64,000 nt of DNA from Octopus sinensis (lineage: Eukaryota), in the NCBI RefSeq assembly GCF_006345805.1, contig NC_042998.1, positions 76,818,001 through 76,882,000 on the forward strand, read 5' to 3'. The notes beneath the pieces were generated by a model that was not told where the DNA came from, did no database searches, and was given only the letters and a program-made list of their open reading frames with translations. Made by a program: the position numbers and the translations under genes. This document shows positions 6,708 through 45,833 of the stretch, in pieces (position 1 is the stretch's first letter; each line of letters starts with the position of its first letter).

Positions 6708-6987
6708 CACATACACAAATATATAAATATTTCGTTTTGGGATTTGGTTGGCAGATACTTTATATGAGTTCGTTTGTTGAAGCATATTCTGTTGTGTCTG
6801 TTGAAAAGTTTGCAAGACGCAAAGAAAATTTTAGGATAATAAAAATAAGGAATAAGTGGTTATTTTACCGGGTTGTGTGTTAAATTATAAGGCACAAAAA
6901 GAAAATAACTCTTCCCTGACACACATTATAGATAAAAAAATATATATGTAAATATATTTATATAAATGTGCACTGTATCATCACTCA

Positions 6988-7041
<54 letters not shown>

Positions 7042-7119
7042 GGATGAAAAGGGACAGACGAGTTGATATATATGAAAAAACATGTCAAGATAGAACATGC
7101 TAAAATAATTTTATAAAGA

Positions 7120-7535
7120 ACATTTCAGTACAGGTTTCGGTCATTTGAAACCTTTTCAACTGTAACAATTAAAAAATTAAATTTAGAAAAATTAAAACAA
7201 GAGTTTTTTTTAAAGAATATTTGTATAGTGTTCATATATAAGTGGCATGTTCCTTGTTTCTGCCTTTCTCTGTCTCTCTTGTTTGCTCTTGTGGGTTCAA
7301 GGTCCATGTGAATTCTTGGTAGGGAAGAAGAAGAGAAGAAGAAGAAGAAGAAGAAGAAGAAGAAGGAGAAGGAGGAGAAGGGGAGAAGGGGAGGAAGAAT
7401 TTGGGATTGCCTTGATTGTCGTTGGTCAGTGGTTGCTAGCACTTTCTGCTGTTCAATTCATGAAAATATTTCTATTGGAAGGTTTGTTTATAGAATTTGC
7501 GTAGGTGTTATACTAAAAAGCATTAGTAATAAAGT
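7120..7535 (-). mobile_element. Penelope-like element 3'/terminal fragment, family B
   Basis: homologous to 10590-11200, with the same terminal motif and internal (AAG)n; hammerhead-like motif at 7126-7162. Confidence 0.6.
7126..7162 (-). ncRNA. minimal hammerhead-like motif with U3-A8 core (UUGAAAA)
   Basis: minus strand reads CAG TTGAAAA GGTT-tcaaat-GACC GAAAC CT GTA CTG: helix I CAG/CTG, helix II 4 bp, GUA triplet. Confidence 0.5.
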
Positions 7536-7674
7536 TAAGGAGAAGAGGGGGGAGAAGAAGAAGAAGATGAAGATGATGATGGCGATGACGATGATGATAA
7601 TGATGATGATGATGAAGAAGAAGAAGAAGAAAGAGAAGGGTCTCTTTCTTCTTCTTCTTCTTCTTCTTCTTCTC

Positions 7675-8337
7675 AGTTGGAGTGCTCACATCAACAATAA
7701 GGTCGATATAGCTCGCATGATGAGCCCCTGGATATTAAGAACCTTCCAGTCCACAGAACAAGGTGTCATCATTCCACTTTTCTCCTACTTTGTACGGCCA
7801 CACCTCGAATACTACTGCCCCTTGTGGTCTCCCCATACAAAACAAAACATCTCGAAAATTGAATCACCCCAGAAGGCTTTCAGTAAACGAATTAAAGGCA
7901 TGACTGATCTAGATTACTGGGACAGCCTTAAAGCCTTGAAACTCTCTCCCGCGCCGCCTCGAGCGGTACATCATTTGCACGATGTGGAGAATATACCGCT
8001 AGCATTGCCCAAACCACCTGAACATTAGCTTCAAGATTCATCCAAGACTGGGACCACGGGTGATGCGTCCCCTGCCCAATTCAGGTTCACAACATGTAGG
8101 TATACTGCGACAAAATTTCGTTTCTTCACAGGCCCTGCCCTGTTTAACATTGTCCCAAAACTGATCAAAGAAGAATAGGATCCCATCACCTTTAAAGTGA
8201 GTCTGGACAAATTTCTTCAAGGAATACCAGATAAGCCACCAATACCTGGATACAACACACATTCACCAAAACCTCTCTACTTGATACCACAAAACTTGAC
8301 TTAAAAAGGATTTAAATAATCCTATCAGGTGGCGATA
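7675..8337 (+). mobile_element. CR1/Jockey-group LINE 3' fragment (second family)
   Basis: LSWSAHINNKVD..WILRTF..FVRPHLEYYCPLWSPH; the 3' tail is split by a mariner and resumes at 9854-9880. Confidence 0.85.
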
Positions 8338-9853
8338 TTAGGTTGTCAAGAATGTTCTTGCGGTTTTCAACATTTAAATTCAGATGCACATATCTCGGCT
8401 CAAACAAAACTTTATTAATCGAAATAAAGATCATCATAATCAACACACTTTTGCCAATGCGAATCAAATTTATTTATGCCAGTATCGTAAAAATCCTGCG
8501 TTCTGGTGGCTATAAAGTCGTTGAAGGTGTGTTTGGCATCGTCTTGGTTTGGCATCGTCTTGGTCACGCAGGAAGTTGTCGAGATGCTTGAAATAGTGAT
8601 AATTGGTAGGCGTGAGGTCTGGTGAGTATGGTGGATGAGGTAGAGTTTCGTAGCCCAATTCGTTCAACTTCTGCAGGGTCAGTTGTGCGACGTGCGGCCG
8701 CGCGTGGTCGTGGAGAAGAAGTGTTCCTTTTCTATTGACCAATGCTGGTTGTTGTCGGAGTTTCTTATGCATTTCATCCATTTGCTGACAGTACTTCTCC
8801 GCCGTAATGGATTCGGCTGGATCCAAAATCTGTGATGAATGAGACCGGCTGCAGACAACCAAAGATTCACCAACCGTTTTTTGATGCAACTTTGACTTCG
8901 GGAAAAGCTGTGGAGCTTCGTCGGCGTCCAACCATTAAGTTGAGCGTCGCCAGTTGTATAAAGAATCCAGTTTTCATCGCAAGTATCAATCTGGAAGGCG
9001 GCGAGCTGGCAGAATCGTTAGCACACCGGGCGAAATGCTTAGCGGTATTTCGTCTGCCGTTACGTTCTGAGTTCAAATTCCGCTGAGGTCGACTTTGCCT
9101 TTCATCCTTTCGGGGTCTATAAATTAAGTATCAGTTACGCACTGGGGTCGATATAATCGACTTAACTCCTTTGTCTGTCCTTCTTTGTCCCCTCCTTGTT
9201 TAGCCCCTCGTTGGCAATAAAGAAATAAGTATTAATCTGGTCGAGAAACGAGTCGTTCTTGCTGCGTAAAAGAAGGTAAGACGACACTTCAAAACGGCGT
9301 CTTTTTTGGTTGTCATTCAATTCGTGCAGTACCCATTTTTCAAGTATTTTTGTTTTTCTAATCTCTTTCAAGTGGTTGGAAATTGTCGTATACGTTACAT
9401 CTAATTTAGAAGCAAACTCTCGAACTGTTGTGCGTAGATTCGCTTCCACTAAGGCTCTAAGTTGATCGTTGTCAACATCTGATGGCCAACCACTACGCTT
9501 ATCCTCTTCAAGACTCCCGTCACCGCTACGAAATTTCTTGAACAACCATGGTGCTGTACGTTCATTAGTGGGTTCTAGGCCAAATGCATCGTTGATATCG
9601 CGAGCTGTTTCAGCAGCCTTTTGGCCTAGCTTTAAATGGAATAAGAAAATTGTGCGAATTTGCCTTTACTCCATGTTGTATTCAACGTTCCTGAAAAAAT
9701 ATTTAAAAAGAAAAAGAGTAACACGATTCGATAGGGCGAAAACGGGCTTTAAAATGATATATAAAGTAAAAGTAATTTAACGAAAATTAATTTGAAAATA
9801 CATAATTTCAACCCAAAATTAAAAATTCATCAAGAACTTTCATGATAACCTAA
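8338..9853 (-). mobile_element. TIR-to-TIR mariner transposon with disrupted transposase
   Basis: TIRs TTAGGTTGTCAAGAATGTTCTTG and CAAGAACTTTCATGATAACCTAA; TA on both sides (8336-8337, 9854-9855); motifs KWVLHEL, LLHDHARPHVA, HPPYSPDLTP; stops, frameshifts and a SINE insertion. Confidence 0.95.
8995..9226 (+). mobile_element. SINE family 1, complete copy with 14-bp TSD
   Basis: TSD AAGTATCAATCTGG (8981-8994) and AAGTATTAATCTGG (9227-9240); B-box-like GAGTTCAAATTCC. Confidence 0.95.
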
Positions 9854-9893
9854 TATTAAGATAGACATGGCCTGGACCATGTATATATTTAAG

Positions 9894-9951
<58 letters not shown>

Positions 9952-10433
9952 TATATCTTTGAAGTTCTGTATTTGTGTGAATGTGTATAGAATAATCAGT
10001 TGAATAAAGTTAAAACATGGTATGATTTTCACGTCTTTTATTATGGTATTTTAATATTTTAACATTAAAAAAAATGTTATAATACTCATAAAGTTAAATT
10101 AACGCTTTCATACATAGCGTACTTATTAGATTTCAAATGTGTTTAACTAATAGTTGAGTTCTTGACAACTTTAGTGCCTCTGAGAACACTCCAGGGAATG
10201 CATTATCGGAACGCTTACGAGTCCACAGACCACAAATCCAGAACACTGACGTTCGCCAAATTGCACTGAGCGAACATACAGAGACATGTGGTCAGAAAAT
10301 GCTTCCAATTTCTCCCTTCCACAAATTACATGGCACAAATGAGGTTGTAAGAAACACAAAATAAAAACGTTTCATCAAAATGCTCAAACCCGAACGGAAA
10401 CAACAGTAATAATACTAATCAACGATGTGGATT

Positions 10434-10478
<45 letters not shown>

Positions 10479-10498
10479 TTACCATCATTACACTACAC

Positions 10499-10589
<91 letters not shown>

Positions 10590-10592
<3 letters not shown>

Positions 10593-10889
10593 GAAAATTC
10601 TAAAATAATTTGATCATGAAAAACCTTTTAGTACCGGTTTCAGTCTTCGCAACTTTTTTAACTTAGAGTAAAATCTGGAAAACAATTAAATTGTGGAAAA
10701 ATTAAATGAAATGTTTTTTAAAAAATATTTCCATAGCTTTCAAATACAAAGGACATTTTCCTTTTTTCTGTCTGTCTGTTTCTCTTTTTTACTCTTGTGA
10801 AGGCTTGGTAGTAGGTAGTAGTAATCCTAAAAGTATATTTGATATGAGTTCTTGGTTTTGATTGTTTAAGCAGCAGTAGCCAAGAAGAA

Positions 10890-10924
<35 letters not shown>

Positions 10925-11790
10925 AGAAGAAGAAGAAGAAGAAGAAGAAGAAGAAGAAGAAGAAGAAGAAGAAGAAGAAGAAGAAGAAGAAGAAGAAGAA
11001 AAGGGAGTAGGAAAAGAAGAAAAATATGGGAGTGATATGACAGTCGTAAGATGTTGGTGGAATCCTCTTAAATGTTCAAGTGACCCTAAAGTGTTTTGTT
11101 GTGGTTGTAATAGTAGAGATTGGAATTGTTCTGAATAAATTCATGGGCAGTGACTGTTCTGAATATATCGTTTTTAATATTTGCGTGGATATTATACTAA
11201 GGCCCTTCTAGTAGTGTCATTCGTGGTGGATGCATTAAAATAGGGTTTATATTATGTGATAAAAAAATGACTCTTTGCTAATGCGCTGATGGTAAGTTAC
11301 ATCGTCCCTGAATTTATAGAGGGGAAAATTCTGAGGCTGGGTTGTTTGTTAGTGGGGCAAATGTCGATCTGTTCGCTGAATGCTATTTTTCTGTATTCTC
11401 GAATTCTGATCTGGGATCTATGTAGAATCGTCCTTCGAGGTAAACTGTTTTGGTTTCGCCTATGTATTGCGCAATTTAATACATATATTAAGTTTTCCGA
11501 AGCACATGTGAAGTTGTTTTTTTCACTGTAAAACGTTGGTCTTATTTGAAAGAGAACTCCGATCCCTCAATTAGGTTGATGCAAATTTCACAGCTAGGTC
11601 TTCCGCATTTTTAACTGACGACTTCAATATTGTTGTCGAGTGTACTTGGGCTTGTGTTAGGGGACTTTTCATAGATTTGTGTTGCCTTTTGGTCTTAAAG
11701 ATGGTGTGCGTTTGGAGGATTAAATTCATTCTGTGGTCCCTTTTTAGTAGGGGAATGTTCTGGAGGATGGTGTCGAAGGCTTCATTATTA
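10590..11790 (-). mobile_element. Penelope-like retroelement remnant (GIY-YIG endonuclease region plus terminal repeat), family B
   Basis: minus strand: HNPLNNEAFDTILQNIPLLKRD..KTKRQHKS, then NFTCASENLIYVLNC (GIY-YIG-like); hammerhead-like motif at 10630-10663; flanked by (TA)n. Confidence 0.75.
10881..11000. repeat. (AAG)n microsatellite
   Basis: direct inspection. Confidence 0.95.
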
Positions 11791-11839
11791 AGGGGGTTGT
11801 GTATGGGATGTATATGTATGTATATATTTATATATATAC

Positions 11840-36067: not shown

Positions 36068-36925
36068 GTGACAATTATTCGGTTACCATAATAAAACTCC
36101 GAGTTTCTGATGTCGGGGCGGAAATCTACTCCGGCATCTCGTCTGTTATTAAGACAAACGGAAATGCTTTGTAATGACCGTTAAACAAAGGGAAATTACT
36201 ATGTAAATGACGTTATTAAGAAACTGTGGACCACGAGGTCACGTAGTTTGTGGGCTCATTTGAAGGGGGGAAGGGTAGCTTGGAAAAGATGAGCGAAGTG
36301 GAATGGTCGGACTGAAGTCGCCGGAAAGCTCGGAGAATGGTAGTTGGAGGGGCAGGGTGGAGGGGAATTAAGTAAGGGAAAACGGAAGACGGACAACGGC
36401 AAGGGCTGCGTGGATGCGGTGAGGGGATATCGACGAAGGATGAAGTGGCGAGCCATGTGTTGAGACTGAGTTTCAAAGTCGTGGTTTTCACTGCAGGGAC
36501 TTCAGACGGAGGGATTGGGAGCTTGGTGTGGGTAGTGTGGGAGGAGGAGAAGTTAAAGTATGAGTGTGATTGGGTGTGTTTGTAGTGGATGGAAGTAGTG
36601 AGAGCGGAGTTGTGTTGTTGACCGAAATGTCGAAAAAAGTGACAGAAGTGTTGGAAATAGTGCAGAAGAATTCGAAGGCAGGATGGAAGTATTGGACAAA
36701 AGAGAGGAAAGAGTCTAGTTGTTCGCGGTAGAGTGAATTCGCACCGATACAACTGTCAATATAATGACCGTATAGTTCGGGAGTGGGCCAAATGAATCCT
36801 GAAAATATTTGGGCCTCAATGTAGCCATCGAACAGGTTCGCATAGTTGGGGCCCATTCTCATTCACATGGCCACTCTCGAGACATCTTGGTAAAATTCCT
36901 CCGCGAACGAGAGACAGTCGAACTC
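36066..36925 (-). mobile_element. Penelope-like retroelement RT remnant with terminal hammerhead-like motif
   Basis: minus strand: RMGPNYANLFDGYIE..YGHYIDSC (PLE RT motifs) and IHYKHTQSHSYFNFSSSH; motif at 36090-36150; ends at (TA)n. Confidence 0.85.
36090..36150 (-). ncRNA. hammerhead-like motif at the PLE terminus
   Basis: minus strand reads AATAA CAGACGA GATGCCGG[14 nt]CCGACATC A GAAACTC G GAGTT TTATT: helices I, II and III can all be drawn. Confidence 0.45.
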
Positions 36926-37032
36926 AATATATAAGAAAAATGTTATCCTCACGAAATGTGATTAAGGGAGCCAAAGCACCTATATTGTAATATTGCAAGA
37001 AAGAGTTAAATACTCTTAATGCTATAAGCGCG

Positions 37033-44305: not shown

Positions 44306-44650
44306 AACAATTGCAGCGTGGAAGGTGTTTATAAGCCATTTAAGAAACACACAAAAGCCGTTCAATTCACTTCAACATTTAAGTTTAATTTCTCAAAATA
44401 TTTTCGTCGCTAAAATCCGCGACCTGTTCACTGACAAAAATCCGTGCTGCATCTCATTTTTGTCAGTGAACAGGTCGCGGATTTTAGCGACGAAAATATT
44501 TTGACAAATTAAACTTAAATGTTGAAGTGAATCGAACGGCTTTTGTGTGTTTCTTAAATGGCTTATAACACCTTCCACGCTGCAATTGTTTTCGTTTCAG
44601 CACACGATCTCAGATCAAATTACTTGCTATGCGAGTACATCTCCGTAATA
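44306..44650 (+). mobile_element. fold-back PLE-terminus-like element: 136/135-bp inverted arms, 14-bp spacer, ~60-bp tail
   Basis: arms 44306-44441 and 44456-44590; hammerhead-like motif at 44459-44508. Confidence 0.8.
44459..44508 (+). ncRNA. hammerhead-like motif with G3-C8 core (GUGAACA)
   Basis: TTTGTCA GTGAACA G GTCGC-ggatttta-GCGAC GAAA ATAT TT TGACAAA: helix I 7 bp, helix II 5 bp, palindromic AATATT at helix III. Confidence 0.55.
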
Positions 44651-45487: not shown

Positions 45488-45833
45488 AACAATTGCAGCG
45501 TGGAAGGTGTTTATAAGCCATTTAAGAAACACACAAAAGCCGTTCAATTCACTTCAACATTTAAGTTTAATTTCTCAAAATATTTTCGTCGCTAAAATCC
45601 GCGACCTGTTCACTGACAAAAATCCGTGCTGCATCTCATTTTTGTCAGTGAACAGGTCGCGGATTTTAGCGACGAAAATATTTTGACAAATTAAACTTAA
45701 ATGTTGAAGTGAATCGAACGGCTTTTGTGTGTTTCTTAAATGGCTTATAAACACCTTCCACGCTGCAATTGTTTTCGTTTCAGCACACGATCTCAGATCA
45801 AATTACTTGCTATGCGAGTACATCTCCGTAATA
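45488..45833 (+). mobile_element. second copy of the fold-back element
   Basis: inverted arms span 45488-45773, followed by the same tail. Confidence 0.8.

What the first reader, a model, noticed from the sequence alone, without database searches (positions are those of the whole stretch)
7126..10663. Second PLE family with a U3-A8 hammerhead core (copies at 7126-7162 and 10630-10663)
Seen on the minus strand: CAG-TTGAAAA-GGTT(tcaaat)GACC-GAAAC-CT-GTA-CTG and AG-TTAAAAA-AGTT(gcgaa)GACT-GAAAC-CG-GTA-CT. The outer helix II pair covaries (G-C versus A-T), the triplet is GUA, and helix III is the palindrome ACCGGT in the second copy. The second copy has lost G5. It lies at the end of a GIY-YIG-bearing Penelope remnant, which ties the motif to a coding PLE. 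Inference: with the G3-C8 family, this window shows two alternatives to the canonical C-G pair at positions 3-8 in independent families.
Basis: partly seen in the sequence, partly recalled or inferred. Interest (0 to 1): 0.7.

Follow-up and report, generated by a model that had tools for sequence, protein, structure and literature searches.

The report
Penelope hammerhead with U3-A8 core
The two motifs are damaged copies of the small hammerhead RNA motif carried by an abundant family of Penelope-like jumping genes; their U-A core swap is the family norm but is already published, and the intact version is predicted to cut itself only weakly, if at all.

Summary
Observation confirmed. Both motifs are minimal type I hammerheads from two subfamilies of one Penelope-like retrotransposon (RT, CxxxxCxxC linker, GIY-YIG). 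They are separate truncated insertions, not the two ends of one element. U3-A8 is the master state, not decay: 3,993 genomic matches against 4 canonical C3-G8 matches with the same tail. A young subfamily has near-identical tandem copies. Both window copies are damaged (copy 2 lost G5; copy 1 lost the helix III palindrome). The variant is known: Cervera and De la Pena 2014 report U3-A8 in Schistosoma Penelope-like elements, with the same UUGAAAA core, and Perreault 2011 report it in nature. This scan also noted it before on other DNA. In related elements all four Watson-Crick pairs occur at 3-8. One feature I did not find in what I read: U3 faces a fixed A17, so U3-A17 is predicted to pair over the cut site (0.83 in the young dimer), like the inhibitory C3-G17 pair. 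Cleavage is untested, and none of 30 copies holding the ORF start begins at the predicted cut. New member of a known kind.

The parts
7126..7162 (-). Minimal type I hammerhead, copy 1 (younger subfamily): core UUGAAAA, 4-pair helix II, GUA triplet, predicted cut between 7129 and 7128. Damaged: helix III ACCUGU instead of ACCGGU, one helix II pair turned to a wobble.
7030..7615 (-). 5'-truncated non-coding 3' end of the Penelope-like element (3' UTR, pseudo-LTR, tail), ending in a (TA)n tract
   Evidence: (blastn to a young unit)
10630..10663 (-). Minimal type I hammerhead, copy 2 (older subfamily): G5 changed to A, A10.1-U11.1, intact ACCGGU palindrome, 2-pair helix I, predicted cut between 10632 and 10631
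10590..10736 (-). Pseudo-LTR of copy 2, followed by a (TA)n tract
   Evidence: (74.8% to the young unit)
11216..11801 (-). Decayed coding remnant of the same element: end of the RT region, CX2-5CxxC linker and GIY-YIG endonuclease, with stops and frameshifts
   Evidence: (tblastn E 1e-51)

Best explanation
These are two damaged copies of a minimal type I hammerhead motif with a U3-A8 core that sits in the pseudo-LTRs of an abundant Penelope-like retrotransposon family, and the intact version likely works as a slow, dimer-dependent self-cleaving RNA. Shown: the motif, its fixation in about 4,000 copies, its place in both terminal repeats of an RT plus GIY-YIG element, and tandem copies 4.4 kb apart. 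Inferred: two motifs in a tandem transcript pair through the ACCGGU palindrome to form two cores; U3-A8 stands in for C3-G8; any cut falls after GUA. Predicted: U3 can instead pair with A17 over the cut site and slow the reaction. Most transcripts that were copied into the genome were uncut or religated. The two window copies are probably inert.
For: Genome-wide counts with one tail: U3-A8 3,993; C3-A8 83; U3-G8 65; C3-G8 4; about 1.4 doubles are expected from independent decay. In 29 copies picked by flank only: U3 29 of 29, A8 28 of 29, A17 29 of 29. Pfam RVT_1 above its cutoff on a 748-aa frame. Motif in both terminal repeats; three in tandem with units 98.1% identical. The minimum-energy dimer of young copies gives helix II within each strand, and helices III and I between strands. 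Between subfamily consensuses the core plus helix III differs at 0 of 17 positions against 26 of 160 in flanks, with two double changes that keep or create a pair. Published: U3-A8 in Cercyon elements and low dimer activity of minimal motifs (PMC4209133); U3-A8 active in vitro per PMC3088659.
Against: No cleavage was measured. None of 30 copies holding the ORF start begins at the predicted cut: 26 run through the motif and 4 start roughly 30-110 nt past it (read by eye). The conservation test is borderline (Fisher p 0.058). In the older subfamily helix I has only 2 pairs and forms with probability 0.02. The GIY-YIG match is 21.6 bits, just under Pfam's 22.6 cutoff. In a Poseidon element, hammerhead mutants did not affect insertion in vitro (PMC11167929).
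Confidence: 0.65

Rival explanations
1. The motif is a hammerhead homologue that no longer cleaves. U3-A17 pairing and a short helix I keep it off, and it is kept as a structural or dimerisation signal (ACCGGU palindrome) or by descent alone.
For: Predicted U3-A17 pairing 0.83 and 0.74 in young dimers against 0.0 in two natural C17 copies. All sampled copies with the motif carry it uncut. Cervera and De la Pena do not exclude functions other than cleavage.
Against: The catalytic positions, not only the palindrome, are unchanged across three subfamily consensuses, and both double changes strengthen helices I and II. G17 variants with the analogous trap still cleave, 8- to 100-fold slower, in tertiary-stabilised hammerheads (PMC3884650).
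Confidence: 0.3
2. The copies are decayed versions of a canonical CUGANGA hammerhead, or a chance match in A-rich DNA.
For: Both window copies carry damage. The closest relatives with a motif are canonical C3-G8, so the distant ancestor probably was.
Against: 3,993 U3-A8 against 4 C3-G8 matches, with controls of 2 each. Near-identical young copies all read UUGAAAA.
Confidence: 0.02
3. The AG just before U3 is a splice acceptor, so the working ribozyme forms only after splicing supplies a new helix I strand, as described for Drosophila virilis Penelope.
For: A U-rich tract and AG precede U3 in all three subfamily consensuses. The D. virilis intron ends at helix I.
Against: No clear GT donor lies nearby upstream (read by eye). 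None of the 26 genomic copies with a 5' motif has a junction at U3. The AG is also helix I, pairing with CU, which explains its conservation.
Confidence: 0.08

Closest known systems
U3-A8 minimal hammerheads of Cercyon Penelope-like elements, Schistosoma mansoni families 3 and 4 (Cervera and De la Pena 2014, PMC4209133)
   Same: Type I minimal motif in pseudo-LTRs, U3-A8 core (family 4 has the identical UUGAAAA), palindromic helix III, over a thousand dispersed copies.
   Different: This family has no extra base between 9 and 10.1, a 4-pair helix II, a 6-base palindrome and A17; the two S. mansoni examples have G17 and U17 (text taken from a PDF figure, columns may be off).
Hammerhead of the Neptune-like element of Marsupenaeus japonicus (row in Fig. 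S3 of PMC4209133; called Neptune-like in PMC8557442)
   Same: No inserted base, 4-pair helix II with A10.1-U11.1, extended palindromic helix III, A17.
   Different: Its core is canonical C3-G8, so position 3 cannot pair with A17.
Neptune or Nematis clade Penelope-like elements (Craig et al. 2021, PMC8557442)
   Same: C-terminal GIY-YIG preceded by a CX2-5CxxC motif, (TA)n targets, tandem and inverted pseudo-LTRs, optional frameshifted ORF1 (seen here).
   Different: No named reference element was in my tree, so Neptune against Nematis is not resolved.
C3-G17 trapped hammerhead (Kalweit and Hammann 2013, PMC3884650)
   Same: Position 3 is complementary to position 17, proposed to cover the cleavage site.
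   Different: There it is an engineered G17 variant; here it would be a weaker U-A pair fixed in a natural family.

Membership tests
Minimal type I hammerhead of Penelope-like elements | Core N3-UGAN-N8-A and GAAA with a Watson-Crick pair at 3-8 | tested here: met
   UUGAAAA and GAAA in all three subfamily consensuses; window copy 2 fails at G5
Minimal type I hammerhead of Penelope-like elements | Helix II closed by a purine-pyrimidine 10.1-11.1 pair, usually G-C | tested here: met
   G-C (often decayed to G-U) in younger, A-U in older subfamilies; pair probability 0.9 or more in 4 of 4 intact copies folded
Minimal type I hammerhead of Penelope-like elements | Short palindromic helix III that allows a dimer | tested here: met
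   ACCGGU, 6 of 6 pairs, forms between strands in the predicted dimer; window copy 1 has 4 of 6
Minimal type I hammerhead of Penelope-like elements | Helix I of 2 or more pairs around an NUH site | tested here: met
   GUA; 3 pairs plus an extension in younger, 2 pairs in older subfamily
Minimal type I hammerhead of Penelope-like elements | Extra base between positions 9 and 10.1 (usual, not universal) | tested here: not met
   Absent here; also absent in the 3 closest relatives with a motif and in published rows
Minimal type I hammerhead of Penelope-like elements | Located in both pseudo-LTRs of the element | tested here: met
   L101, L189, L191, L192 and others
Hammerhead ribozyme (activity) | Self-cleavage after N17 | not testable with these tools
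   Only assembled contigs were available; genomic 5' ends do not mark the site
Endonuclease-bearing Penelope-like element | RT followed by a C-terminal GIY-YIG domain | tested here: met
   RVT_1 E 5.5e-8 above cutoff; GIY-YIG E 2.7e-4 just under cutoff; many homologues carry both families
Endonuclease-bearing Penelope-like element | Tandem, partial-tandem and inverted repeats with a tail past the hammerhead | tested here: met
Neptune clade | CX2-5CxxC linker and (TA)n targets | tested here: met
   CGRPNCGIC before the GIY-YIG domain; (TA)n at ends; the linker is shared with Nematis
Neptune clade | Placement with named Neptune elements in an RT tree | not tested
   The tree held no named reference elements

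The most novel reading that the evidence does not exclude
This family has fixed a self-blocking hammerhead: U3 pairs with A17 over the cut site, the natural counterpart of the forbidden C3-G17 pair, so the RNA stays whole for reverse transcription until the element's protein or a partner strand opens it. That would be a built-in brake explaining how a Penelope-like element keeps a ribozyme in its own template, and it is testable with one A17C change.
Probability: 0.25. Interest if true: 0.55.

Novelty: new member of a known kind. Interest (0 to 1): 0.27.

Why it matters
As a U3-A8 hammerhead it adds one more host to a published variant. It is useful as a test case: a young, high-copy family with a non-canonical core shows that the swap does not stop the element from spreading. 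The U3/A17 combination gives a cheap test of the open question of whether Penelope hammerheads are meant to cut efficiently at all. It also shows that searches fixed on CUGANGA miss thousands of motifs in this genome.

Tried and rejected
Rfam scan: no hammerhead among the 150 of 337 rows shown, which are microsatellite matches. One element spanning 7126-10663: rejected; the copies are different subfamilies with unrelated repeats between them. 5' ends at the cleavage site: 0 of 30. Expression: no RNA holder listed; four runs guessed to be RNA were laid as contigs, which cannot show starts or ends; no joints were listed and none of the loose ends shown (52 not shown) fell at the cut site; uninformative. 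Whether related species keep U3-A8 and A17 was left open. A competing hairpin across the GAAA was suspected by eye but did not appear in the folds of intact copies. Link of the 358-bp U3-A8 repeat to a coding element: one of 20 stretches had a hit, which I took for an unrelated fragment. Papers not held: Lunse et al. on dimeric Penelope hammerheads, Przybilski and Hammann on 3-8 exchanges, Nelson and Uhlenbeck; any of them may already cover U3 with A17. Searches for that combination found no report, but the library lacks most subscription papers.

Full report
Observation. Both motifs are on the minus strand as written. A first descriptor scan of the window returned these two and one weak A3/A8 site. 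The flanks of the two copies are homologous but diverged. The window lies in a 2.7-Gb genome, G000.

Family consensus. For copy 1, 30 loci were picked by the upstream flank alone, so the core could not bias the choice (40 of 1,884 candidates scored). Among the 29 non-self loci, U3 is in 29, A8 in 28 and A17 in 29. For copy 2 the query included the motif (40 of 1,891 scored): U3 29 of 29, G5 27, A8 28, A10.1 28, U11.1 28. Exact patterns with the same GAAACCGGTAC tail give, genome-wide, U3-A8 3,993, C3-A8 83, U3-G8 65 and C3-G8 4, with reversed-pattern controls of 1 to 3. Independent decay of a U3-A8 master predicts about 1.4 doubles. U3-A8 is therefore the master state. The damage in the window copies (G5 lost in copy 2; palindrome and one helix II pair changed in copy 1) is private. 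Copy 1 is predicted to misfold as a monomer (helix II probability 0.0).

The element. L101 has the motif in two direct repeats about 4.3 kb apart with coding sequence between them. A 748-aa frame from L140 matches RVT_1 above cutoff and GIY-YIG just under cutoff. A CxxxxCxxC motif precedes the endonuclease, which PMC8557442 gives for Neptune and Nematis elements (passages). Insertions end in (TA)n and often carry an inverted 5' part. L189 and L191 each hold three motifs in tandem about 4.4 kb apart; the L189 units are 98.1% identical. All frames seen are broken by frameshifts; whether these are assembly errors was not tested. In the window, the coding remnant at 11216-11801 belongs to copy 2, and copy 1 is a non-coding 3' fragment. 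They are two insertions.

Signs of selection. Clustering 185 distinct hit sequences (some redundant, from overlapping loci) gave three subfamily consensuses. Oldest against youngest, the core plus helix III differs at 0 of 17 positions and the flanks at 26 of 160 (p 0.058).

Mechanism. Folding two intact young copies together gives the double-hammerhead layout: helix II within each strand, and the 6-pair ACCGGU helix III and helix I between strands. In the same folds U3 pairs with A17, with probability 0.83, 0.74, 0.39 and 0.02 in four A17 copies and 0.0 in two natural C17 copies. The folding model does not see the tertiary 3-8 pair, so this is a predicted competitor only. PMC3884650 (first two fifths and passages read) describes the proposed C3-G17 trap, 8- to 100-fold slower cleavage of G17 variants, and an unshown result that G3-C8 works better with G17 than with C17, which fits a general 3/17 rule. 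Against a major role for cleavage: of 30 copies holding the ORF start (40 of 106 scored), 26 run through the motif uncut and none starts at the cut. PMC11167929 (first half read) found protein-dependent cleavage, no effect of hammerhead mutants on insertion in vitro, and no RNA reads ending at the site.

How unusual. PMC4209133 (first half of the text and two of three parts of the supplement read) reports about 1,300 U3-A8 motifs in S. mansoni Cercyon elements, one family with the same UUGAAAA core. PMC3088659 (passages) reports natural U3-A8 and cites its activity in vitro. In 83 loci related by RT, 27 carry a strict motif: 31 hits, of which 26 C3-G8, 3 U3-A8, 1 G3-C8 and 1 A3-U8, against 0.4 per shuffle. 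A quick tree of this family and 34 of those 83 loci (SH-aLRT support only) puts the four U3-A8 cases in four places, and the three closest relatives with a motif are C3-G8 without the inserted base. So the swap recurs. This genome also has canonical families (3,311 matches against 736 controls), the G3-C8 family and other U3-A8 families with C17 or U17. Earlier notes of this scan describe U3-A8 Penelope hammerheads in other genomes; I did not check them.

What may be new. None of the three U3 rows among the 56 in Fig. S3 of PMC4209133 has A17, nor do the three U3-A8 relatives. Searches found no report of U3 with A17, but three key papers were not held and figure content is not searchable.

Verdict. 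A real, family-wide U3-A8 minimal hammerhead in a Neptune-like Penelope element; a new member of a known kind. Interest 0.27. The self-blocking reading has probability about 0.25 and would merit 0.55.

Noticed in passing
window 6798-6834, + strand: A third U3-A8 hammerhead-like motif from a different repeat family (1,810 search candidates). Related copies read helix I CUA/UAG, UUGAAAA, an inserted G, a 5-pair helix II and U17; this copy has lost the 5' strand of helix I. No Penelope-type frame in 15 loci.
   Followed up: partly
L196, L191, L101 (full-length copies): A 410-aa first frame overlaps the RT-EN frame in the -1 phase at T TTT TTA, intact in 49 of 50 junctions read, with a similar heptamer near the RT frame start in three relatives. 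Likely a programmed -1 frameshift; a frameshifted ORF1 is noted for some Penelope-like elements.
   Followed up: partly
L237-L243 and L202-L210 (G000 C1, C2): A repeat of about 358 bp, often in tandem pairs, with a U3-A8 hammerhead, a 5-6 pair helix I and GUC triplet; looks like a non-autonomous retrozyme-type element. One canonical C3-G8 look-alike with the same helices appears.
   Followed up: partly
window 44399-44510 and 45581-45690: The G3-C8 motif occurs four times as two inverted pairs inside a local duplication. It has the inserted base and U17, so G3 could wobble with U17.
   Followed up: partly
L024 / L085 (G000 C16 near 39.177 Mb): An unbroken 347-aa frame with ankyrin-like repeats, resembling a myosin phosphatase targeting subunit (name recalled, not tested), lies just upstream of a fragment of this element; possibly a retrocopy.
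   Followed up: no
window about 7680-8340 (+) and 8410-9700 (-): Between the two copies lie a fragment that looks like a LINE 3' end and a decayed mariner-type transposase with a short repeat inserted (read; family names recalled from motifs, not tested).
   Followed up: no
window 10197-10391 (+) and 36510-36946 (-): Two more weak matches to the RT-EN protein, probably remnants of other Penelope-like families.
   Followed up: no
L335-L337; P0027, P0070, P0073, P0076: Relatives of this retrotransposon protein are filed under bacterial genome bins, probably host DNA carried into the bins.
   Followed up: no
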